A program made the translations under genes and the position numbers. 64,000 nucleotides of DNA from a virus (taxonomy: Duplodnaviria > Caudoviricetes), in IMG/VR virus record IMGVR_UViG_3300010352_000625, positions 128,001 through 192,000 of that record. The stretch is one strand, 5' to 3'. Each line of letters begins with the position of its first letter. Positions within the stretch are counted from its first letter, which is position 1. The notes beneath the pieces were generated by a model. That model was given only the letters and a program-made list of their open reading frames with translations. It had not been told where the DNA came from and did not search any database. Below are positions 11,078-58,433 of the stretch, one piece after another.

Positions 11078-11172
11078 ACCCTACACACTAGCTAGATATG
11101 TAGGGGTATAGTCCCATATTTCTCAATATGAGGGGCTTAACTAAATATTAGTACTAAATATTAGTTAAGGGA
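11078..11172 (-). terminator. Hairpins / intrinsic terminator downstream of Ro60
   Basis: CCCTACA...TGTAGGG stem followed by a T-run on the minus strand; second inverted repeat CTTAACTAA...TTAGTTAAG. Confidence 0.6.
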
Positions 11173-11178
11173 TTAATT

Positions 11179-12813
11179 TTAAATATTACCTTTACTAAAC
11201 TCAGCGATAATATTAGGAACACTAGCATCAAAACCAGCTATATCTAGCATACCCTTATCTTCTGGGTCAGCAATACTAAAATTGGTTGCCTCTGTAGCAC
11301 AAACTATCAACTTAGTATCCAGCTTCATCTTTTCTCTGTAATTCTTTAGCCCGGCAAATGGGTGAGTTCTTCCACACCAAGTGTCATTGTCAGTCCATAC
11401 GTTGAATACGTCAACTTCTATATTATTCTTCAAGGCCCAGTTAATAGCCGCTGAACAATCTGTACCACCCCAATTACTTCTTACAACCTTCTTACAAACT
11501 GAATCTAGTTTATCTGTCTTTGTTATACCTAGGTCAACAACTTCATCACAAAAACCAACTACATGTACATTAGGTTCAGTCTTTAGTAGTATCATAGACA
11601 TTGCCGCAGTTACTTCACAACTTCTAAGATTAGTGTTATTTATTGTTGAACTCATTGAACCAGATACATCAAGAGCTACCAGATATCTCTTGTTAGTTGG
11701 TTCAACATTATCAAACGCAAGATAAAAAGCATCTTCCAAAGCTGATTCAATTGCTGGTACTGGTGTCCAACTATTACTACCTCTAAATCCTTCACCAGCT
11801 GAATAAGTCTTCAATGCTATTAATATATTAATAGGATGTATTCTTGACTTGCGTATAACTTCCTTATTGCTCAAAGTCTTACATACCATCATAGTACCCT
11901 TGCTTAGTGGTGCCAAATAACCAATCATAGTCATTTTAGCTAGATTTCTAACTAGTGCTGTTATAGGCATAGTACAGTTTTCACCATCATTAGACATCAA
12001 AGCTTCCCATATATCAACTTCATTAAGCAACTGAGTTGGTACAGTTTCTCTAGGCATATTATATTTCTTTATCAGCTTAACAGCGTTCTTAACTGTATCA
12101 CCAGACATTTCTGACAGATACTTTTCAAAATTCATACCAAGATTAAACTGGTCTATTGCTGAATTAGTATCATCCAATACAGGAAGTACTTCATCATAAC
12201 CCTTTACAATCTTGTTGAATATATAAGCCATATCATTATTCGTAGCTACTGGATGTGAAAGAGCTATGGTATCCTTATGTGTCCAACCTTCACGATTCTT
12301 GTACTTAATTACCTGATATACCAACTGACTAGTATTCTTATCCAAATACCAATTAGCTATACACTTTCTAAGACCTCTACCCCAACCACGAAACTTCTGT
12401 ACGTCTTCTACAAACTGAAACAGATGTGTAGCAGTACGACATACCTTATTAAGATTTCTAAAAGCATAAGCCTTAACATCAGCATTACCAAAGGCACTAG
12501 CCAATGCCATCACAAATATTGCTGAGTCATTCTTAGGTGCTCTACCTGCATCACTTATCTTAACAGTTTCATATACTACTCTACAACCATCCTGTTCAAT
12601 AAGCTTCAATACATTTTCAGCATTTTCCTTAGACAACACTGAACCCTTAACATAATAAGAATTCTTTTCTGAACCCAATATTAGGAATCTATTTAGTCTA
12701 TCCCAATCACTAATTGTAAATACATATCCACCAGCGTTATTCTTAACCTGATTCTTACCAAATACTGATTCTGTTTGTGGAACATTTGTGATTATATCTG
12801 AATACTTTGTCAT
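11179..12813 (-). CDS. rsr: Ro60 / TROVE-domain RNA-binding protein (Rsr-like)
   Basis: N-terminal QVKNNAGGYVF..RFLILGS, KYKNREGWTHKD, MPITALVRNL and RIHP; vWA MIDAS DVSGSM, GGTDCS and WTDNDT. Confidence 0.95.
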   Translation of the reverse strand: MTKYSDIITNVPQTESVFGKNQVKNNAGGYVFTISDWDRLNRFLILGSEKNSYYVKGSVLSKENAENVLKLIEQDGCRVVYETVKISDAGRAPKNDSAIFVMALASAFGNADVKAYAFRNLNKVCRTATHLFQFVEDVQKFRGWGRGLRKCIANWYLDKNTSQLVYQVIKYKNREGWTHKDTIALSHPVATNNDMAYIFNKIVKGYDEVLPVLDDTNSAIDQFNLGMNFEKYLSEMSGDTVKNAVKLIKKYNMPRETVPTQLLNEVDIWEALMSNDGENCTMPITALVRNLAKMTMIGYLAPLSKGTMMVCKTLSNKEVIRKSRIHPINILIALKTYSAGEGFRGSNSWTPVPAIESALEDAFYLAFDNVEPTNKRYLVALDVSGSMSSTINNTNLRSCEVTAAMSMILLKTEPNVHVVGFCDEVVDLGITKTDKLDSVCKKVVRSNWGGTDCSAAINWALKNNIEVDVFNVWTDNDTWCGRTHPFAGLKNYREKMKLDTKLIVCATEATNFSIADPEDKGMLDIAGFDASVPNIIAEFSKGNI

Positions 12814-12921
12814 TTCTTATTACCATCCTTTATTTTTGATTTATTTTTAGATATAAAAAAACACCTTATAGCTATAAAACTAATCAGGTGTTTTTTTATC
12901 TTGTTATATATTTAAATAATA

Positions 12922-13054
12922 TTTTGGATAATTATTGCAGATTGGCTTAAAAATCATTCGATTTTTTATTGCTCAATTACAATTTGTGGAACAAGGTTAC
13001 ATATATTCATTCTGTATGTTAGAATTAGATAACCAACCTGCTCCGACCCAAAAT
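12922..13054 (-). ncRNA. Y-RNA-like gene 1
   Basis: 5' UUUUGGGUCGGAGCAGGUUGGUUAUC pairs with 3' GCCAAUCUGC-AAUAA-UUAUCCAAAA leaving a bulged C; immediately upstream of Ro60. Confidence 0.75.
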
Positions 13055-13064
13055 GTATTATGAT

Positions 13065-13155
13065 ATATATTAGATAAAAAAGCGAAAAACAATTTATAAA
13101 TTAAATTGTATTATTAATCATCCTATGATAATTGTTCTTCAGCGACCCAATATAT
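13065..13155 (-). ncRNA. Y-RNA-like gene 2
   Basis: 5' AUAUUGGGUCGCUGAAGAACAAUUAUC pairs with 3' AAUUGUUUUUC...UUAUCUAAUAU. Confidence 0.72.
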
Positions 13156-13217
13156 TAAGTTTTCAATGTTACATATATTAACTTATATTAATTTATAAAT
13201 TTTAAACATTATTTTAT

Positions 13218-13318
13218 GTGAACTAATTACAGTCTAAAGACTGTAATCTTCCTGATTCATCGACTACAGATTTCGCATAGTCTCCACAGGCTTGAATTCC
13301 CTAGGTATTTGATTTTAT
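13218..13318 (-). mobile_element. Non-autonomous IS200/IS605 right-end (omegaRNA scaffold) derivative
   Basis: Near-identical to 53035-53140, ends GTTCAC and is preceded by TTAC. Confidence 0.9.
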
Positions 13319-13362
13319 GTAACTTAAAATCTAATAAATAGATTTTATTATACAAAAATTAA

Positions 13363-13443
13363 GTTAGATAATTGTTGAAAAACAGATGTTTTCTGTTTAT
13401 AATTTATAAGATTATATGATAACTGTTTTTCTTCGACCCAACA
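13363..13443 (-). ncRNA. Y-RNA-like gene 3
   Basis: 5' GUUGGGUCGAAGAAAAACAGUUAUC (contains GNCGAAG) pairs with 3' CUGUUUUUC-AACAA-UUAUCUAAC. Confidence 0.78.
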
Positions 13444-13455
13444 TATTTATTAAAA

Positions 13456-13670
13456 TTGGCTGGGAAACATTTAAGTTTTACGGGGAAAAACTATCCCCAA
13501 CCCAAATTTACTAAGTTAATGATTGGCGTTATATAGAATGGTAACATAGATAAGACTATATAACATTTGATAGCATAGTACCCGTAAATTCCTGAAGCCA
13601 ACCAATTCAGTATTCCTATTGGTATTGGTGTAAACGATATTATGTCTATGCCCATAATAGGATAAAAAAT
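13456..13670 (-). ncRNA. Unrecognised structured RNA, copy A
   Basis: Paralogous to 13788-14004; identical 27-nt block plus compensatory changes in several helices. Confidence 0.7.
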
Positions 13671-13681
13671 ATTTAAATTAA

Positions 13682-13751
13682 TGGCAGTCGAATGAAGATT
13701 CGAACTCATTATAAATCGCACTTGATTGATAATCGATTACTACGACCCAAC
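13682..13751 (-). ncRNA. Y-RNA-like gene 4 with tRNA-like T-arm and CCA end
   Basis: 5' GUUGGGUCGUAGUAAUCGAUUAUC, then AUGAG-UUCGAAU-CUUCAU, then UCGACUGCCA. Confidence 0.65.
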
Positions 13752-13787
13752 TTATATTATTAACTTATATAAATTTAAAAATTAACT

Positions 13788-14004
13788 AACTTGGGATAAC
13801 TTCAATGAAGTTTTACAATCATTCAGGCGGGGGAGCCAGACCAACCCAAGTTTTTAAAGAACGCTGACATTATATAGAATGATTCATCTAGATAAGACTA
13901 TATAACATTTGATAGTATAGTACCCATAAACTTCTGAGGTCAGCTAACCCAGTACTCTATTATAATAACGATATCATAGCTATACCTACGATAGGATGAA
14001 AAAC
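13788..14004 (-). ncRNA. Unrecognised structured RNA, copy B
   Basis: See copy A; G-U pairs indicate the minus strand. Confidence 0.7.
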
Positions 14005-14187
14005 ATCAATAATTCAATATAGCTGAGTATAGTACACAAAGGAAATGATTTGTAAAAATAAAATGATTGAATTTTTTCGCATTACATAATAATTTACTTT
14101 TTAATTTCTTTATTAATAAAAATAATATTTGATAAGTTTAAAAATTATTTAATATATTCTCTCAGCTATATTGAATTGTCAATGTTC
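14003..14187 (-). other. Long inverted repeat (17 bp perfect, about 27 bp with G-U) enclosing an AU-rich loop
   Basis: AATTCAATATAGCTGAG (14011-14027) / CTCAGCTATATTGAATT (14161-14177). Confidence 0.75.
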
Positions 14188-14198
14188 ATAATTATAAT

Positions 14199-14282
14199 TG
14201 GTGGGAGCGAAGGGAGTCGAACCCTCAAGCCTTGCGGCGAGACATTTTAAGTGTCTTATGTATACCATTCCATCACGCTCCC
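14199..14282 (-). tRNA. tRNA-Leu(UAA)
   Basis: Full cloverleaf with long variable arm, AGACA-CTTAAAA-TGTCT, CCA. Confidence 0.95.
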
Positions 14283-14372
14283 AATATATAATAAAGATTT
14301 ATGTGGGCTAACCAATTTTTGGTTTTACAGGATTTATTACCAAACCCACAAATTTAAGGAATTTAATTATTT

Positions 14373-14714
14373 TTATCCCCAGTATTTATCAGTTCCGTTA
14401 GCAACTACTCTTTTATAATTTTCACATGGGCAAATATTTTTAAGTGACAATGAGGAATTAATATAGCTTTTAAGAAATTTTTCGATATACAGATTACTTC
14501 TCTTATCAGCGTTCATTTTTTCAATAACTTGTTTAATCCAAGAAATTTTCTTTTCTTTAGTTATTGAAAAATCATGATTCAACCAAGATGTTATATTGCT
14601 TACAACATTTTTGTTTATTTCAGTTGATGCAAAATCGATTTTCTTAATAGCATCCCAATTACCGCTTTTAACAAACTTATTGTTTTCATCTCTAAAATTA
14701 AATCTGTAATTCAT
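14373..14714 (-). CDS. Hypothetical protein
   Basis: 113-aa ORF with GAGGAGG RBS downstream of three tandem promoters. Confidence 0.7.
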   Translation of the reverse strand: MNYRFNFRDENNKFVKSGNWDAIKKIDFASTEINKNVVSNITSWLNHDFSITKEKKISWIKQVIEKMNADKRSNLYIEKFLKSYINSSLSLKNICPCENYKRVVANGTDKYWG

Positions 14715-15018: not shown

Positions 15019-15792
15019 TTAATTTTTTAAACTAAATTTAATATTCTTTTTTGCTTCTTCAATTCTATTTTGTGCTATATTAAAATAATTTTCATCTAAT
15101 TCAATACCTATAAAATTTCTGTTAGTATTAACGCAAGCTACGCCAGTTGTGCCAGAACCCATACAATTATCTAAAACCAAATCTTCTTCATTGGTATAGG
15201 TCTTAATTAGATATTCCATTAGTGCTACGGGTTTTTGTGTTGGATGAATGGTACTGCCCAATTTTTCTCTATTTATATTTAATATATCACAAGGGTATCT
15301 ATATCCAGTGTCTTCATAGGGCTTAATTGACAAAATAGGAGAATTAGATGCAACCACAGATTTAAACTTGGCATTTTTTTCACTTGGTTTATTTGTTACC
15401 TTTTTACCATTATGTTTAACCATTTGCGGATTATAAGTACATTGCTTTTTATAAAACACACATATATTTTCAGTTAGTTTTCCCACTCTCTTTTTTACTT
15501 GCATAAAATTAGTAGGTTTTTCTTTTACCCAATATATGTCATATTTGTAATCAGATTTATTACTTAATCTTAGTTCACTACTAAATGGCTCTGTTCCAAA
15601 AAGAATGATTGCACCTTTATCTTTAATCACTCTGTTGTATTGCTCCCATAACGGCTCAAAAGGAATTATGATATCCCATTTACATGCTGTAGTTCCGTAT
15701 GGTAAATCACATAAAATCATATCTATTGATTCATCAGAAATATCTTTCATTTTCTCTAGACAATCACCATGCATTAATCTAATCTCAGACAT
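15019..15792 (-). CDS. N6/N4 DNA methyltransferase
   Basis: LCDLPYG, HPTQKP, LDNCMGSGTTG. Confidence 0.93.
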   Translation of the reverse strand: MSEIRLMHGDCLEKMKDISDESIDMILCDLPYGTTACKWDIIIPFEPLWEQYNRVIKDKGAIILFGTEPFSSELRLSNKSDYKYDIYWVKEKPTNFMQVKKRVGKLTENICVFYKKQCTYNPQMVKHNGKKVTNKPSEKNAKFKSVVASNSPILSIKPYEDTGYRYPCDILNINREKLGSTIHPTQKPVALMEYLIKTYTNEEDLVLDNCMGSGTTGVACVNTNRNFIGIELDENYFNIAQNRIEEAKKNIKFSLKN

Positions 15793-15800
15793 TACTTACC

Positions 15801-16553
15801 TCACTTAAATTTAATATTCTTTTTTGCTTCTTCAATTCTATCTTTAGCTATATTAAAATACTTTTCATCTAATTCAATACCGATAAAATTTCTGTTAGTA
15901 TTAACACAAGCTACCCCTGTACTACCTGAACCCATTGTAAAATCAAGAACTAGTTCATTTTCGTTAGTATAGATTTTTATTAGATATTCCATTAGTGTCA
16001 CTGGTTTTTGTGTTGGATGTAAATGACCCTTTCCACTTGGGTTTGAAAAGTTCAACAGACTATCTTGCCAACCAGTATGTGTGGTTTTATGTTCTGTTTT
16101 CCCTGCAACTCCTAGTCTGTGTTGTTCATCATTTCTTAATCTTGCTCTACCAGATTTTATTGGAGTATCAAGTTCTATAAGATTTTGTTGATTAAAAGTT
16201 GGTTGTTTTTCATAGAAAACAAGAATTTCCTCGTGTTTTCTCATGGGCATTTTTTTAGCGTTTTGAAAACCGCTTGATTTTGTTTTTATCCAAGAATAAT
16301 CATACTTAAACATCTTAATATTACTCATAATCAAAGCACTTGTAAAAGGCTGTGAACCGAATAAAACTATAGCCCCGTTAGGTTTAATAACTCTTTTCAA
16401 CTGCTCCCACATCGACTCAAAAGGAATAACACTATCCCATTTACACGCAGTTGTGCCATAAGGTGGGTCTGTTATAATGGCGTCAATTGATACATCAGGG
16501 ATATCTTTCATCTTATCAAGACAATCACCTTGTATCAATCTAACCTCAGACAT
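15801..16553 (-). CDS. N6/N4 DNA methyltransferase (tandem paralog)
   Basis: TDPPYG, HPTQKP, LDFTMGSGSTG. Confidence 0.93.
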   Translation of the reverse strand: MSEVRLIQGDCLDKMKDIPDVSIDAIITDPPYGTTACKWDSVIPFESMWEQLKRVIKPNGAIVLFGSQPFTSALIMSNIKMFKYDYSWIKTKSSGFQNAKKMPMRKHEEILVFYEKQPTFNQQNLIELDTPIKSGRARLRNDEQHRLGVAGKTEHKTTHTGWQDSLLNFSNPSGKGHLHPTQKPVTLMEYLIKIYTNENELVLDFTMGSGSTGVACVNTNRNFIGIELDEKYFNIAKDRIEEAKKNIKFK

Positions 16554-17767: not shown

Positions 17768-17807
17768 TAAAATTTATTTCTCCTTAGTTGAATGAATTAT
17801 TAAAAAA

Positions 17808-17998
17808 TGGGGTGAAGTGAACTAATTACAGTCTAAAGGCTGTAATCTTCCTGATTCATCGACTACAGATTTCATAGTCTCCACAGGCTTGAATTCCCTA
17901 GGTTCCCTAGGTATCTGTCTTAATATTAGTAAGGGAATTAAACCCTCGCCGTTCTGGTTCACAGCCAGACTGTACTTGTCAATTATACGAACAACACC
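17808..17998 (-). pseudogene. tRNA-His(GUG) interrupted by an IS-derived mini element
   Basis: TCTGG-CTGTGAA-CCAGA anticodon arm and G-1; the 3' end TTCACCCCA lies beyond the insertion. Confidence 0.8.
17817..17928 (-). mobile_element. Non-autonomous IS200/IS605 derivative in tRNA-His
   Basis: TTAC|TAATATTAAGACAGA...GTTCAC; matches the ends of 51745-53140. Confidence 0.9.
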
Positions 17999-20598: not shown

Positions 20599-20734
20599 TT
20601 CTCATTCTTCCTTATCTTCTACATATATAAATTTATGATATATAAATTTATGAATTAAATACACACAAAAACAATAAAAAAATCTTGAATAAAAAGTATC
20701 ATCAATATTAAAATAATTAAATATGGGTGCATAT

Positions 20735-20898
20735 GTGAACTAATTACAGTCTAAAGACTGTAATCTTCCTGATTCATCAACTACAAATTTCATAGTCTCC
20801 ACAGGCTTGAATTCCCTAGGTTCCCTAGGTATTTGATTTTTAATTATTTTTGACATTCATATTACCACCTAAAGACAGTAATCTTTCTGTCTATTTTT
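20735..20898 (-). mobile_element. Complete miniature IS200/IS605 element (left end fused to right end)
   Basis: TTAC|AAAAATAGACAGAAAGATTACTG...GGTGGTAATATGAATGTC joined to the right end ending GTTCAC. Confidence 0.92.
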
Positions 20899-26679: not shown

Positions 26680-26722
26680 TCCTCCAGCTTTATCTGAATC
26701 AAAAGTTGCTCACATAGGTGAA

Positions 26723-26782
26723 TATGAAATCTGTAGTCGATGAATCAGGAAGATTACAGTCTAAAGACTGTAATTAGTTCAC
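26723..26782 (+). mobile_element. Truncated IS200/IS605 right-end derivative
   Basis: Matches the last ~60 bp of the tnpB element, ending GTTCAC. Confidence 0.88.
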
Positions 26783-26919
26783 TATTCTCCCAATATAATA
26801 TAGACTTCTATGTTATTATCAATTATTTCATTAGATATAATATCAATTTTTATATCATCTAAGAATTCTGTTTCATAAGCTACTATCAAATGCATTTCCA
26901 TATCATTTACAGATACCAT
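26782..26919 (-). CDS. Small acidic protein, putative Doc antitoxin
   Basis: Manual translation MVSVND...IIDNNIEVYIILGE*; its 3' end is duplicated immediately before doc. Confidence 0.5.
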   Translation of the reverse strand: MVSVNDMEMHLIVAYETEFLDDIKIDIISNEIIDNNIEVYIILGE

Positions 26920-53696: not shown

Positions 53697-54800
53697 TTAT
53701 TCATTTTTTAAAAGAAACTTATTAGATATTGATTTAAAACTTATTCTAACTTTATTATTTTCTGGTTTAGCAAGTCTCCAGACTATACCTTCACGTTCAA
53801 TATTACTGTTGTTGACTACACTCTTACCTTCAGCTAATTTAAGTATTTCATTAATATCATTAGGTAATATAAAATCTCTATAAATAATTGGTACAGATTT
53901 CAACCCAATTTCTTTAGTAATTCTTTCTACTTCATATTGACTATAATATTCTTGTGTATCAATATCAAAAATATCAAATATATATATATCTATACCTTTT
54001 ATCTTATATTTATTACCTTGAATACCTTCACCACATAATTCACCTTGTAGTGCTATGTTTTTGTTTTTAAAGTATTTTCTCATTTTACTTTCTATATCTT
54101 GTTCTTTAATTACTTGCCAGTATTTACCACCATCATCTTCATCAAGTTGGTTATTTCTTGAACAAACATAAAATTTATTATCTTTAAGAAATATTGTCTC
54201 AGAAGAACCATCTATTTTTTCAGTACCAACAACTTTCATACCAGCAATTTCGTTAATCAAATTTCTAAGATTCTGTACACGTTCTTCATCTGTCTTATAT
54301 ATAAAAACAGGGAAACCTTTTTTAATAATAGTATTAGTAAACAATATCTTAGCTAATTTGTTAAAATATCTAAACATAAAGCTAAGTACAACATCAGGTA
54401 TATATTTTTTAACCCATTTCTTATTGGTAATTACTTTTCTCTTAGCATTATTATCTTCATCTGGTTCATATTTAGTTATACCAATGATTTCAGTAACATC
54501 ATCATCAATATTATAATTACCTTTAGGAAGATAACTAATCGGCAATACCAGTCCCTGACTTATTTGACCACGTAGCTTAATTGTTCTAACTCTATATTTT
54601 CTATCTTTAAGAAATTCAAACTCTGGTGCAGGTGGTAAAATACTATCTATTTCACAATAGATAATCTTATCCCCAGCTTTAAAATTATCTTTCTTAGCTA
54701 CAACACATTGCCAACCATTAATAATAGCTAATTCTATTGCATCAGCATTTTCAATTGGTTTAATTTCTAATATTTCTTGTATACTTGCTAGTTTTCTCAT
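53697..54800 (-). CDS. ATP-dependent RNA ligase, DRB0094/Rnl2-like family
   Basis: MRKLASI, LRGQISQGL, KTDEER, TEKIDGSS, QGELCG.GIQGN.Y, REGIV, SFK.ISN.FL. Confidence 0.92.
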   Translation of the reverse strand: MRKLASIQEILEIKPIENADAIELAIINGWQCVVAKKDNFKAGDKIIYCEIDSILPPAPEFEFLKDRKYRVRTIKLRGQISQGLVLPISYLPKGNYNIDDDVTEIIGITKYEPDEDNNAKRKVITNKKWVKKYIPDVVLSFMFRYFNKLAKILFTNTIIKKGFPVFIYKTDEERVQNLRNLINEIAGMKVVGTEKIDGSSETIFLKDNKFYVCSRNNQLDEDDGGKYWQVIKEQDIESKMRKYFKNKNIALQGELCGEGIQGNKYKIKGIDIYIFDIFDIDTQEYYSQYEVERITKEIGLKSVPIIYRDFILPNDINEILKLAEGKSVVNNSNIEREGIVWRLAKPENNKVRISFKSISNKFLLKNE

Positions 54801-57212: not shown

Positions 57213-58433
57213 CTACCCATTTGATTTAAAATTGTATACAGGCTTGATAATATTGACTACATCAACAGTATCAACGATTGACTCCTGTATCTCAGCTAAA
57301 CCTCTGTACGCCATTGGAGCCTCGTCTACAGTGTGATTATTAACTGATGTAGTGTATACATCTTTCATTGACTTAATATATTCTATCATGTTAATTGTTT
57401 CTTTTGCCTCGGTTCTTGACATAATTCTTCCAGCCCCATGTGGTGCTGAACAATTCCAATCTTCGTTGCCTTTACCTATACCAATTATTGAACCAGTAGC
57501 CATATTTATTGGTATTACTACTCTTTCACCTTTTTTAGCTGATATAGCACCTTTGCGTACTATTTTAGATTCAATATCGATATAATTATGTATTGACTCA
57601 AACTGCTCCAATACATATCCAGACAATTTAAACTCTGATATTATTTTGTTAGCTATAGCATGTCGATTACCTACTGCATATTCCTGGGCTATAGCTATAT
57701 CATGTAAATAATCATTAAAATCATCGTCAGTAATATACTTTGATTTTAAAGCTATTTTGTTATACTTAGCTTTTATTTTCTCTAATTCTGATGATATCAT
57801 TGAATAATTATTTTCTTTTTTAAGTTTATCTACAGTTTTATTTATTTCCTTAATCATTCTATCTTTCATTTTATCCATATTACCATTAATCATTATATTA
57901 TAATAATGTTTAGCAATCTGAACCCCTAAGTTTCTGGAGCCAGTATGTATAACTAAATACTTATAATTATCCTCATCAACAGCTATTTCTATAAAATGAT
58001 TACCGCCGCCTAAAGTACCTAAAGATTTTACTATTCTATCTATATTATCTATTTTATCAAAACATTTTAAATTAGACAACATTGACATAACTTTATTTTT
58101 TATTTCATTTTCAACTTTAGTATATGTTCCATTACCATTTGGTATGCAATTGCGTATAAACTCGTCTATATCATGATAATTCAATTCTATAGACTTATCT
58201 ATTTTAGTTACATTAACGCCACAACCCAAATCAACACCAACTATATTTGGGTCAATTTTATTCTCAATTTCACCAGTAAAGCCTATGACACAACCTATAC
58301 CAATATGTACATCGGGCATGATACGAACTTTCTTATCATCAAATATCCCAGTATCAAGCATGTTTTCTATCTGCTCTATTACTTTATAATCATAAGTTTT
58401 TGCAAATATTTTTACGTCATAATCTTTAAACAT
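57213..58433 (-). CDS. rtcB: RtcB RNA ligase (3'-P/2',3'-cyclic P to 5'-OH)
   Basis: MPDVH, GVDLGCG, GTLGGGNHFIE, HTGSR, HNY, RKGA, SAPHGAGR, DEAP.AY. Confidence 0.96.
   Translation of the reverse strand: MFKDYDVKIFAKTYDYKVIEQIENMLDTGIFDDKKVRIMPDVHIGIGCVIGFTGEIENKIDPNIVGVDLGCGVNVTKIDKSIELNYHDIDEFIRNCIPNGNGTYTKVENEIKNKVMSMLSNLKCFDKIDNIDRIVKSLGTLGGGNHFIEIAVDEDNYKYLVIHTGSRNLGVQIAKHYYNIMINGNMDKMKDRMIKEINKTVDKLKKENNYSMISSELEKIKAKYNKIALKSKYITDDDFNDYLHDIAIAQEYAVGNRHAIANKIISEFKLSGYVLEQFESIHNYIDIESKIVRKGAISAKKGERVVIPINMATGSIIGIGKGNEDWNCSAPHGAGRIMSRTEAKETINMIEYIKSMKDVYTTSVNNHTVDEAPMAYRGLAEIQESIVDTVDVVNIIKPVYNFKSNG

What the first reader, a model, noticed from the sequence alone, without database searches (positions are those of the whole stretch)
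11179..14300. Phage Ro60 with a multi-member Y-RNA-like array (top candidate system)
Seen: directly upstream of Ro60, on the same strand, four ncRNA units share a 5' motif UUGGGUCG-N10-12-UUAUC. In units 1-3 the variable segment always pairs with a matching 3' strand (GCAGGUUGGU/GCCAAUCUGC; GAAGAACAAUU/AAUUGUUUUUC; GAAAAACAG/CUGUUUUUC) above a terminal helix with a bulged C, while the enclosed loops are unrelated. Known: Ro60 binds a bulged-C helix in Y RNAs, bacterial YrlA carries a GNCGAA(N)G motif, and Y RNAs tether Ro60 to effectors such as PNPase; characterised bacterial loci have one or two Y RNAs. Inference: one Ro60 is programmed by a cassette of interchangeable adaptor RNAs, each with a constant handle and a different effector or guide domain, co-transcribed with tRNA-Leu from three stacked promoters.
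Basis: partly seen in the sequence, partly recalled or inferred. Interest (0 to 1): 0.9.

Follow-up and report, generated by a model that had tools for sequence, protein, structure and literature searches.

The report
Phage Ro60 with Y-RNA gene array
A 207-kb uncultured phage encodes the ring-shaped RNA-binding protein Ro60 and, just upstream, several small RNA genes that carry the docking helix Ro60 uses in animals and bacteria; this is a large, well-preserved example of a known partnership, not a new kind of system.

Summary
ORF 11179-12813(-) is a full-length Ro60. Four units upstream on the same strand share UUGGGUCG-N10-11-UUAUC. Y1-Y3 close with a covarying upper stem and a 3' UUAUCY strand, which gives a bulged-C helix. 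A model built only from other genomes finds Y3 (26 bits, the only hit in the phage genome). The same motif flanks Ro60 in 33 of 81 phage loci and 55 of 80 bacterial loci, in arrays of up to 8. It fits the nematode sbRNA/animal Y model better than Rfam YrlA.

So this is a Ro60-Y RNA locus, a known kind (mycobacteriophages, Thermus phage phiLo). It is larger than the characterised cases but not unusual among uncharacterised genomes. This scan has already noted such arrays in at least 23 other genomes.

Specific to this window:
- Near-identical strains exchange the upper stem and loop of one unit behind a constant handle.
- Y4 is a rearranged tRNA-like unit.
- Two variant "B" units have U at the bulge.
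- A separate structured RNA (X) is present in two copies.
- A 101-nt mini-IS sits inside the array.

The "three stacked promoters" and the "guide" idea have no support. Ro60 binding, expression and function remain inferred.

The parts
11179..12813 (-). Ro60 (TROVE + vWA) gene, 544 aa
   Evidence: Pfam TROVE 4.9e-41 and vWA_Ro60 1.9e-63. Full-length alignment to human and Xenopus Ro60 at E about 1e-121 and to D. radiodurans Rsr at 2.5e-108. The DVSGS MIDAS motif and the KYKNR...H segment are conserved.
11079..11105 (-). Terminator-like hairpin plus T-run downstream of Ro60
   Evidence: Consensus scan, 10-bp stem followed by TTTTTATTTT.
12851..12895 (-). A7-stem-U7 hairpin (terminator-like) between Y1 and the Ro60 ribosome-binding site
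   Evidence: dG -19.5 kcal/mol, z -6.6, 0 of 200 shuffles fold as well. Conserved in close relatives.
12921..13054 (-). Y1: Y RNA with a long (about 80 nt) branched loop
   Evidence: Handle UUUUGGGU[C]GG / UUAUCCAAAA and upper stem GCAGGUUGG/CCAAUCUGC. Rfam sbRNA model RF01656 gives 28.5 bits, E 0.0028. Relatives show G.U to A-U in the upper stem and U-A to C-G in an inner hairpin.
13067..13153 (-). Y2: Y RNA; occupies the exchangeable slot
   Evidence: The minimum-energy fold is the Y architecture. Model R1 aligns it full length but weakly, 3.8 bits. Five of seven close relatives carry a tRNA-like Y RNA here instead.
13218..13318 (-). 101-nt miniature IS200/IS605-like element inserted in the array; not part of the Ro60 system
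   Evidence: Absent from all close relatives. Inserted after TTAC and ends in TCAC. Further copies lie near 17.8k and 20.7k, and a partial one at 26.7k. It accounts for the sub-threshold RAGATH-18 match, 32 bits against a gathering score of 44.9.
13361..13444 (-). Y3: canonical Y RNA
   Evidence: Model R1, built without any sequence from this window, gives 26.3 bits and E 5e-4 in 64 kb. It is the only hit in the 207-kb genome. The GUCGAAG motif, an 8/8 upper stem and a UUAUCU 3' strand are all present.
13458..13505 (-). B1: degenerate second copy of the B unit
   Evidence: Starts UUGGGUUGG. A 9-bp hairpin is predicted. It is part of the X-B duplication and is absent from relatives.
13521..13669 (-). 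X2: second, diverged copy of the structured RNA 'X'
   Evidence: It differs from X1 by compensatory changes in two hairpins and two loop-to-downstream pairings.
13680..13753 (-). Y4: rearranged tRNA-like (YrlA-type) Y unit; 3' end uncertain
   Evidence: The 5' half matches the relatives' tRNA-like unit (handle, GUAAUCGA-UUAUC, T-loop-like GAGUUCGAAUC). The canonical 3' upper strand, spacer and handle are replaced by UCGACUGCCA. R1 gives 3.5 bits. No Rfam YrlA hit at E<=10.
13788..13852 (-). B2: Y-like variant with U at the bulge position and no UUAUC after the upper stem
   Evidence: ACUUGGGU[U]GG ... UUAUCCCAAGU closes like the handle. The interior has a C-rich-loop hairpin and a second hairpin. 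Nearly invariant in six close relatives. The bulge is C in 298 of 321 family members and U in 11.
13862..14005 (-). X1: structured RNA 'X', conserved in all close relatives
   Evidence: Five helices including two pseudoknots are 99.5% paired across 6 distinct sequences, with 6 pairs changed on both sides. Slid controls give 21-47% pairing.
14199..14282 (-). tRNA-Leu(UAA), last gene of a same-strand tRNA cluster preceding the array
   Evidence: ARAGORN and Rfam. Two relatives (L165, L166) have a tRNA-Leu(UAA) at the equivalent position; in L166 it aligns with this gene.

Best explanation
This is a phage-borne Ro60-Y RNA ribonucleoprotein locus.

The 544-aa Ro60 ring protein is made from 11179-12813(-). 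The 1.4 kb upstream, on the same strand and following a tRNA cluster, encodes three canonical Y RNAs (Y1, Y2, Y3). It also encodes one rearranged tRNA-like Y RNA (Y4) and a Y-like variant (B2, with a degenerate copy B1).

Each canonical unit has the same layout:
- a terminal helix in which 5' GGGU[C]G(A/G) pairs with 3' UUAUCY, leaving one C bulged;
- an asymmetric internal loop;
- an 8-11 bp upper stem of free sequence;
- UUAUC at the 5' edge of the loop;
- a variable module.

Shown here: the anatomy; its conservation and covariation across more than 100 Ro60 loci; and its match to the nematode sbRNA / animal Y RNA model.

Inferred from the Xenopus, Deinococcus, Salmonella and Thermus-phage work: Ro60 docks on the 5' strand of the bulged helix. 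The variable modules either gate the Ro60 cavity or tether it to host partners such as a 3'-5' exoribonuclease. The phage has no PNPase of its own. The RNP would then serve structured-RNA surveillance or decay during infection, alongside the phage's own RtcB, RNA ligase, more than 20 tRNAs and tmRNA.

Also inferred: the strong hairpin-U7 between Y1 and the Ro60 start suggests that the RNAs are made in excess, with Ro60 expressed by read-through.
For: Protein:
- Pfam TROVE and vWA_Ro60 match.
- Full-length alignment to solved Ro60 structures.

RNA anatomy in the window.

Independent model: R1, built from 56 units of other genomes, hits Y3 at 26.3 bits. That is the only hit in the whole phage genome.

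Enrichment of the composite motif:
- Phage loci: 0.76 per kb in the 1.5 kb upstream of Ro60, against 0.029 elsewhere on the same strand and 0.004 on the other strand.
- Bacterial loci: 1.29 against 0.134 and 0.011.

Covariation:
- A unit's own upper-stem 5' strand finds a complement scoring at least 7.5 of 8 in 26% of units, against 3% for strands swapped between units.
- 5' GGGC goes with 3' GNCY in 109 of 111 units where a 3' element was found. 5' GGGU goes with ANCY in 32 of 33 (31 of them A(U/C)CY). The 3' element was located without using the unit's own 5' strand.
- The bulged base is C in 298 of 321 units.

Rfam:
- The sbRNA model RF01656 aligns end to end with short units, up to 38.4 bits against a gathering score of 38.
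- tRNA-like units hit YrlA at 28-43 bits.

Strain comparison: compensatory changes in Y1, and whole-module exchange behind a constant handle.

Genome context: RtcB and an Rnl2-type ligase are present, and no RNase PH domain is found.

Precedents:
- YrlA in 22 phages, and polycistronic Yrn2-tRNA-Yrn1 in D. radiodurans (PMC4201824).
- phiLo Ro60 binds two upstream Yrl RNAs and host PNPase in vitro (PMC12135203).
- Three highly transcribed ncRNA regions lie upstream of an Rsr-like gene in Listeria phage CKA15 (PMC12282133).
Against: - There is no expression or binding evidence for this phage, and its host is unknown.
- Rfam Y_RNA (RF00019) and YrlA (RF02553) give no hit at E<=10 on the array.
- Y1, Y2 and Y4 score weakly with R1, at 9.5, 3.8 and 3.5 bits. 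Their membership therefore rests on the motif plus pairing, not on the model.
- For Y1 the Y-type fold is not the minimum-energy fold, -28.1 against -32.5 kcal/mol.
- Y4 lacks a canonical 3' strand and may be a decaying copy.
- B units have U, not C, at the bulge.
- The units used for the pair counts were chosen by a pairing score, so that count is biased. Searches are the fairer tests.
Confidence: 0.8

Rival explanations
1. The units act in cis rather than as free RNAs. They would be repeated Ro60-binding sites or attenuators in a long 5' leader of the Ro60 mRNA, giving autoregulation of Ro60 synthesis.
For: All units lie upstream of Ro60 on the same strand. A terminator-like hairpin sits just before the ribosome-binding site. 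Promoter-like sites for individual units are no more frequent than chance.
Against: - In other genomes the same units lie downstream of Ro60 (Anaerolineae loci, 4-6 copies). They also lie 1.3-2.4 kb away among tRNAs in Streptomyces phage Beuffert.
- Each unit closes on itself through a terminal helix.
- Homologous RNAs in D. radiodurans, Salmonella and M. smegmatis accumulate as discrete Ro60-bound species processed from precursors (PMC4201824).
Confidence: 0.08
2. The repeats are DNA-level elements, such as iterons, protein-binding sites or a small mobile repeat family, or are decayed tRNA-derived pseudogenes. They would have no RNA function.
For: - A real mobile element (the mini-IS) and a tandem duplication lie inside the array.
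- Y4 and B1 look degenerate.
- The array lies at the end of a tRNA cluster.
Against: - Orientation is strictly strand-specific, 0.004-0.011 per kb on the opposite strand.
- The helices contain G.U pairs, which would be A.C on the other strand.
- Both helices covary while the handle sequence stays fixed.
- The association with Ro60 holds across distant phyla and GC contents from 26 to 70%.
Confidence: 0.04
3. The variable loops are guides that base-pair with specific phage or host RNAs and so programme Ro60 towards targets.
For: The loops are unrelated between units and are exchanged between strains.
Against: - The longest complementarity of each loop to the rest of the phage genome is no better than for shuffled loops; 37 to 200 of 200 shuffles do as well.
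- About two thirds of the long loops in the family carry a tRNA-like T-loop, which points to a protein-binding module rather than an antisense one.
- The host genome is unknown, so host targets could not be tested.
Confidence: 0.08

Closest known systems
Bacterial and phage Y RNAs bound by Ro60/Rsr: YrlA, YrlB, Yrn1, Yrn2 (Chen et al. 2014, PMC4201824; Rfam RF02553); Yrl1/Yrl2 of Thermus phage phiLo (PMC12135203)
   Same: - Encoded within 4 kb of Ro60 on the same strand.
- Several per locus, next to or between tRNA genes.
- GNCGAA(N)G-type 5' strand (Y3: GUCGAAG).
- One member with a tRNA-like T arm: Y4 here, and a unit with a 5-bp-stem, 7-nt-loop T-arm-like hairpin in the close relatives.
- The phage also carries RtcB, as in the Salmonella rsr-yrlBA-rtcBA operon.
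   Different: - The array gives no Rfam YrlA hit at E<=10, and the YrlA consensus has no UUAUC.
- Y1-Y3 have no tRNA-like domain.
- This locus has 4-6 units, against two in the characterised loci.
- Ro60 binding and PNPase recruitment were not tested here.
Metazoan Y RNAs and nematode stem-bulge RNAs (Rfam RF00019, RF01656; Kowalski and Krude 2015, PMC4726728; PMC4450293)
   Same: - Same layout: lower stem with one bulged C in the 5' strand, followed by G-U and A-U pairs.
- Internal loop with an A/C-rich 3' strand.
- Covarying upper stem ending in GG.
- UUAUC at the 5' edge of the loop.
- Variable loop.
- The RF01656 consensus aligns end to end with short units of related phages at 38.4 bits (gathering score 38), and with Y1 at 28.5 bits.
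   Different: - These are prokaryotic-virus genes, with no Pol III promoter or terminator and no oligo-U tail.
- The window's own units fall below the gathering score, and there is no RF00019 hit.
- In animals UUAUC is linked to DNA-replication activity, which is not expected here.
- Common descent versus convergence on a Ro60-binding shape is not settled.
Listeria phage CKA15: three highly transcribed non-coding regions within 2 kb upstream of an Rsr-like gene (PMC12282133)
   Same: Several same-strand non-coding transcription units just upstream of a phage Ro60-like gene, proposed by the authors to be Y RNAs.
   Different: Those RNAs were not shown to have the handle, and I did not examine that genome. 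Here the sequence anatomy is shown but expression is not.

Membership tests
Ro60 / TROVE protein family | TROVE (HEAT-repeat ring) domain followed by the Ro60-type vWA domain, above Pfam cut-offs | tested here: met
   PF05731 at 141.8 bits (cut-off 23) and PF25045 at 213.7 bits (cut-off 27.7).
Ro60 / TROVE protein family | Full-length similarity to solved Ro60 structures, including the MIDAS DxSxS motif | tested here: met
   9nen and 1yvp at E about 1e-121 over residues 13-540, and 2nvo at 2.5e-108. DVSGS aligns with DVSAS/DVSGS.
Y RNA (functional class: Ro60-bound ncRNA) | Encoded near Ro60 in prokaryotes, on the same strand | tested here: met
   Units lie 108-1040 nt upstream of the Ro60 start codon on the minus strand.
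Y RNA (functional class: Ro60-bound ncRNA) | Terminal helix formed by the 5' and 3' ends, with a conserved 5' strand and a single bulged C | tested here: met
   Y1-Y3: UUGGGU[C]G / UUAUCYAA. Family-wide covariation of the pair next to the bulge. Bulge is C in 93% of units. Not met for Y4 (no canonical 3' strand) or for B1/B2 (U at the bulge).
Y RNA (functional class: Ro60-bound ncRNA) | Physical binding by Ro60, and dependence on Ro60 for stable accumulation | not testable with these tools
   Needs EMSA, RIP or Northern blots. Only precedents exist (PMC4201824, PMC12135203).
Metazoan Y / nematode sbRNA (Rfam RF00019, RF01656) | Score at or above the Rfam gathering threshold | tested here: not met
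   Window: RF01656 at 28.5 bits against 38 for Y1, and no RF00019 hit at E<=10. A related phage unit (L075:2962-3031) reaches 38.4 bits.
Metazoan Y / nematode sbRNA (Rfam RF00019, RF01656) | Upper stem followed by a conserved UUAUC at the 5' edge of the loop | tested here: met
   All four Y units in the window. UUAUC or UUACC follows the upper stem in 208 of the matches to the strict handle.
YrlA (Rfam RF02553) | Score at or above the gathering threshold (69 bits) | tested here: not met
   No hit at E<=10 on 12700-14400. The best hit in the genome is 10.1 bits, elsewhere. tRNA-like units of other phages reach 28-43 bits.
YrlA (Rfam RF02553) | GNCGAA(N0-1)G motif near the 5' end | tested here: inconclusive
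   Y3 GUCGAAG is exact. Y1 GUCGGAG and Y4 GUCGUAG each have one mismatch. Y2 GUCGCUG does not fit.
YrlA (Rfam RF02553) | tRNA-like domain with T and D arms | tested here: inconclusive
   Y4 has a T-loop-like GAGUUCGAAUC hairpin only. The relatives' unit has a T-arm-like hairpin with a 5-bp stem and 7-nt loop (AUGAG-UUCGAUU-CUCAU), but no D arm was identified. Y1-Y3 have none.

The most novel reading that the evidence does not exclude
The handle-plus-UUAUC RNAs of phages and bacteria are true homologues of animal Y and stem-bulge RNAs. UUAUC would then be an ancient Ro60-RNP feature rather than a DNA-replication motif. In addition, co-circulating phage strains recombine the variable module behind a constant Ro60 handle to retarget Ro60 to different host factors. 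That would make the array an evolving adaptor-RNA cassette system in the phage-host conflict.
Probability: 0.25. Interest if true: 0.75.

Novelty: new member of a known kind. Interest (0 to 1): 0.5.

Why it matters
Ro60-Y RNA particles are studied mainly in animals (as lupus and Sjogren autoantigens) and in three bacteria. What the different Y RNAs of one organism do is still open.

This locus and its relatives offer three things:
- A compact set of natural variants in which the Ro60 handle is fixed and the effector module is exchanged between near-identical strains.
- A sequence signature (GGKY[C]GR, upper stem, UUAUC, then A/C-rich spacer and RYCY) that finds Y RNAs which Rfam YrlA and Y_RNA miss. 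It shows arrays of up to eight copies in many bacteria and phages, including cultured Mycobacterium and Streptomyces phages where they can be tested.
- A direct sequence-level bridge between prokaryotic and animal Y RNAs, which a 2015 review described as not homologous (PMC4726728).

The system itself is not new.

Tried and rejected
- Rfam at gathering and at E<=10: no Y_RNA or YrlA hit on the array. Only sub-threshold sbRNA and RAGATH-18 matches appeared.
- The RAGATH-18 match is the end of a repeated 101-nt mini-IS, not part of the Ro60 system.
- A single-protein scan of IMG/VR found no relatives. An alignment-based scan was needed.
- The array DNA matched GenBank phages only through the tRNA-Leu gene.
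- Fixed-spacing pattern search: one unrelated hit, because the spacing varies.
- The other TTGGGTYG sites: 56905 is at an ORF start; 53901 and 58222 fall inside the RNA-ligase and RtcB ORFs by coordinates.
- A fifth handle-like site at 32743(-), among the tRNAs, shows neither a convincing fold (z -0.5) nor a tRNA or Rfam match. It is left unresolved.
- Sigma-70-type promoter scan: at chance. The 14-mer shared upstream of Y2 and Y4 is not a recurring genome motif.
- Loop complementarity to the phage genome: at chance.
- An exact-word search for X in IMG/VR found nothing.
- I could not find in the held library a paper for the recalled Ro60 K170/R174 Y-RNA-binding mutants, so that point is not used as evidence.
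- Two reviews (PMC10870794, PMC6047535) are not held. A statement there about larger arrays or UUAUC cannot be excluded.


Full report
**What is there**

The window is part of a 206,669-bp IMG/VR virus record rated complete. Its GC content is 26%. It carries more than 20 tRNA genes and a tmRNA, all on the minus strand.

ORF 11179-12813(-) is a full-length Ro60:
- It matches Pfam TROVE and the Ro60-type vWA domain far above their cut-offs.
- It aligns over residues 13-540 with human and Xenopus Ro60 at E about 1e-121. That is better than with D. radiodurans Rsr, at 2.5e-108.
- The MIDAS DVSGS motif and the KYKNR...H segment are invariant among 20 homologues.

A terminator-like hairpin follows the gene.

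**The observation**

TTGGGTYG occurs 9 times in the window against 1.2 expected. Six of these lie within 800 nt upstream of Ro60 on its strand. Of the three others, 56905 is at the start of a coding ORF. 53901 and 58222 fall inside the RNA-ligase and RtcB ORFs by their coordinates.

Four units (first G at 13049, 13148, 13439 and 13748) have UUGGGUCG-N10-11-UUAUC.

In Y1 (12921-13054), Y2 (13067-13153) and Y3 (13361-13444):
- The 8-11 nt before UUAUC pair with a downstream strand that differs in every unit.
- A short A/C-rich spacer and UUAUCYAA follow. This strand pairs with UUGGGU[C]G and leaves the C bulged.
- For Y2 and Y3 this is the unconstrained minimum-energy fold. For Y1 it is 4.4 kcal/mol above the minimum.

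**Is it more than chance, and is it RNA?**

I collected 81 Ro60 loci from viral contigs, including a 92%-identical relative, and 80 from bacterial genomes.

Frequency of the composite GGKYCG-N6-14-UUAYC:

| Loci | 1.5 kb upstream of Ro60, same strand | Elsewhere, same strand | Opposite strand |
|---|---|---|---|
| Viral | 0.76 per kb | 0.029 per kb | 0.004 per kb |
| Bacterial | 1.29 per kb | 0.134 per kb | 0.011 per kb |

- 33 of 81 viral loci and 55 of 80 bacterial loci have at least one copy in that upstream stretch.
- Arrays reach 6 copies in viral loci and 8 in bacterial loci. In some Anaerolineae the array lies downstream of Ro60.

Three tests speak for an RNA structure:
- A unit's own upper-stem strand finds a complement scoring at least 7.5 of 8 downstream in 26% of units. 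The figure is 3% when strands are swapped between units.
- I located the 3' handle without using the unit's own 5' strand. 5' GGGC then goes with 3' G(C/U/A)C(C/U) in 109 units, with 2 exceptions. 5' GGGU goes with A(U/C)C(C/U) in 31 units, with 2 exceptions.
- The bulged base is C in 298 of 321 units.

On a MAFFT alignment of 56 short units the two helices are 79% paired, against 64% in shuffles and 40-58% when slid. Those units had been chosen by a pairing score, so this count is biased. I weight and 87 more.

A covariance model built from those 56 units, none from this window, finds Y3 at 26.3 bits. That is the only hit in the window and in the whole phage genome. With filters off it aligns Y2 correctly but weakly. 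It cannot span Y1's long loop.

**What family**

The consensus is: nnnnn-GGG(U/C)[C]G(A/G)-ag-N6GG-UUAYC-loop-CCN6-CAaCAaC-(U/A)(U/C)(A/G)(U/C)CC-nnnnn.

- The 5' strand is the GNCGAA(N)G motif that Chen et al. described for YrlA and YrlB and compared with vertebrate GGUCCGA (PMC4201824).
- About one third of well-defined units are short hairpins. Of the long-loop units, 97 of 149 contain a T-loop-like element, which is the YrlA type. 50 of 63 multi-unit loci have at least one such unit. [quoted passage not shown]
- tRNA-like units of related phages hit Rfam YrlA below threshold, at 28-43 bits against 69. Short units hit the nematode stem-bulge RNA model RF01656 at up to 38.4 bits, against a gathering score of 38. 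That match runs end to end and includes UUAUC and the 3' spacer.
- The YrlA consensus has no UUAUC. UUAUC is documented as conserved in nematode sbRNAs and vertebrate Y RNAs (PMC4450293, PMC4726728).
- I found no paper in the held library describing UUAUC, or arrays this large, for prokaryotic Y RNAs. Two key reviews are not held.

The family is also present, unannotated, in cultured phages:
- Mycobacterium phage Norm has two R1 hits (35.9 and 26.7 bits) flanking its YrlA, under 'hypothetical protein' CDS 231/232.
- Streptomyces phage Beuffert has four units among its tRNAs.

**What is specific to this window**

Seven contigs with at least 90% identical Ro60 show a common layout: tRNA-Leu (on the two contigs that extend that far), X, B, Y3, then either a tRNA-like Y or Y2, Y1, hairpin-U7, Ro60.

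- The slot next to Y1 holds a 137-nt tRNA-like Y RNA in five contigs. Its T-arm-like hairpin is AUGAG-UUCGAUU-CUCAU.
- In the window and two other contigs the same slot holds Y2.
- The sequences are identical up to GGGUCGC and again from UUAUCUAA onwards. Only the upper stem and loop are exchanged.
- This state occurs in all four combinations with a 117-aa ORF insertion between B and Y3. That indicates recombination among strains.
- Y1 differs from its relatives by structure-preserving changes: G.U to A-U in the upper stem and U-A to C-G in an inner hairpin.

The window alone carries an extra block made of Y4, X2 and B1:
- Y4 is the 5' half of the tRNA-like unit joined to a different 3' end (UCGACUGCCA). 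It lacks the canonical 3' strand.
- The downstream UUAUCC belongs to the conserved 5' end of X. Y4 may therefore be a rearranged or decaying copy.

B2 (13788-13852) closes like the handle but has U at the bulge and no UUAUC. It is nearly invariant in relatives, so probably functional. Whether Ro60 binds it is open.

**Things inside the coordinates that are not Y RNAs**

- The sub-threshold RAGATH-18 match is the end of a 101-nt mini-IS at 13218-13318. It is inserted after TTAC, ends in TCAC, is absent from relatives, and has copies near 17.8k and 20.7k and a partial one at 26.7k.
- X (13862-14005 and 13521-13669) is a separate structured RNA. It has three hairpins, and the loops of two of them pair with downstream segments. 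Pairing is 99.5% across six distinct sequences, with six pairs changed on both sides. I did not identify it with any Rfam family.

**Expression and mechanism**

- Promoter-like sites are at chance, so 'three stacked promoters' is unsupported.
- Co-transcription with tRNAs is plausible by analogy with D. radiodurans Yrn2-tRNA-Yrn1 (PMC4201824), but was not tested.
- A strong A7-stem-U7 hairpin (dG -19.5, z -6.6) lies 38 nt before the Ro60 start and is conserved. I infer RNA excess, with Ro60 made by read-through.
- The loops show no above-chance complementarity to the phage genome.
- The phage also encodes RtcB (57213-58433) and an Rnl2-type RNA ligase (53697-54800), but no RNase PH/PNPase domain. 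This fits an RNA repair and surveillance toolkit that would borrow a host exoribonuclease, as shown in vitro for phage phiLo (PMC12135203).
- Binding, partners and biological role remain inferences.

**Verdict**

This is a real and well-supported phage Ro60-Y RNA locus. The kind is known, so I class it as a new member. Three things give it added value: the family-wide signature linking it to animal Y RNAs, the strain-level module exchange, and the passengers X and the mini-IS. Earlier notes of this scan describe the same kind of array in at least 23 other genomes. I treat that as agreement, not as evidence.

Noticed in passing
window 13862-14005(-) and 13521-13669(-); also L164:2762-2904, L165:1482-1625, L166:2514-2656, L167:1028-1171, L168:765-907: About 145-nt structured RNA 'X' between tRNA-Leu and the Y array, present in two diverged copies in the window. 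It has three hairpins, and the loops of two of them pair with downstream segments, giving a double pseudoknot. Six pairs are changed on both sides. No Rfam family matches it, and an exact-word search of IMG/VR found nothing.
   Followed up: partly
window 13218-13318(-); copies near 17790-17900(-) and 20700-20800(-); partial copy near 26715-26805(+): 101-nt miniature IS200/IS605-like element. It inserts after TTAC, ends in TCAC, and gives a RAGATH-18-like hairpin match at 32 bits. One copy sits inside the Y array and is absent from all close relatives.
   Followed up: partly
window 57213-58433(-) and 53697-54800(-): The phage encodes RtcB (Pfam 183.8 bits) and an Rnl2-type RNA ligase (104.8 bits), about 40-45 kb from Ro60. 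No RNase PH/PNPase domain is found anywhere in the genome.
   Followed up: partly
window about 32668-32750(-): A fifth GGGUCGA-N-UUAUC site, followed by GGUUCGAUUCC and ...CCACCA, lies among the tRNA genes. ARAGORN does not call it a tRNA. Rfam finds no tRNA or other family there at E<=1. Its fold is no better than shuffles. Whether it is a tRNA/Y chimera or a decayed tRNA is open.
   Followed up: partly
L171 (Mycobacterium phage Norm, MK359306.1) 2102-2180, 2241-2318, 2378-2453: Two short Y RNAs (R1 at 35.9 and 26.7 bits) flank the YrlA just upstream of the Ro-like gene. They lie under the annotated 'hypothetical protein' CDS 231 and 232, which are probably mis-annotations.
   Followed up: partly
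L172 (Streptomyces phage Beuffert, MT952852.1) 75, 214, 1073, 1159: Four unannotated handle-UUAUC units among tRNA genes, 1.3-2.4 kb upstream of the Ro-like gene. Three are followed by a T-loop.
   Followed up: no
L164:3006-3359 and L167:1273-1626: A 117-aa ORF with no Pfam match is inserted between B and Y3 in two close relatives. It is flanked by a duplication of the 3' end of B (AAAACUUCAUUGAAGUUAUCYCAAGU).
   Followed up: no
L089, L090, L098, L105, L114, L128, L148 (Anaerolineae/Chloroflexota); L159, L161 (Alphaproteobacteria): Bacterial Ro60 loci with 4-6 handle-UUAUC units downstream of Ro60, or 8 units upstream. These are the largest arrays seen here.
   Followed up: no
window 14002-14027 / 14161-14186: A 26-nt inverted repeat, 88% complementary, brackets a 133-nt very AT-rich spacer between tRNA-Leu and X1. 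Relatives have different sequence there.
   Followed up: no
window 15019-15792(-) and 15801-16553(-): Two adjacent paralogous N6/N4 DNA methyltransferase genes lie between the tRNA cluster and tRNA-Leu. The relatives have one.
   Followed up: no
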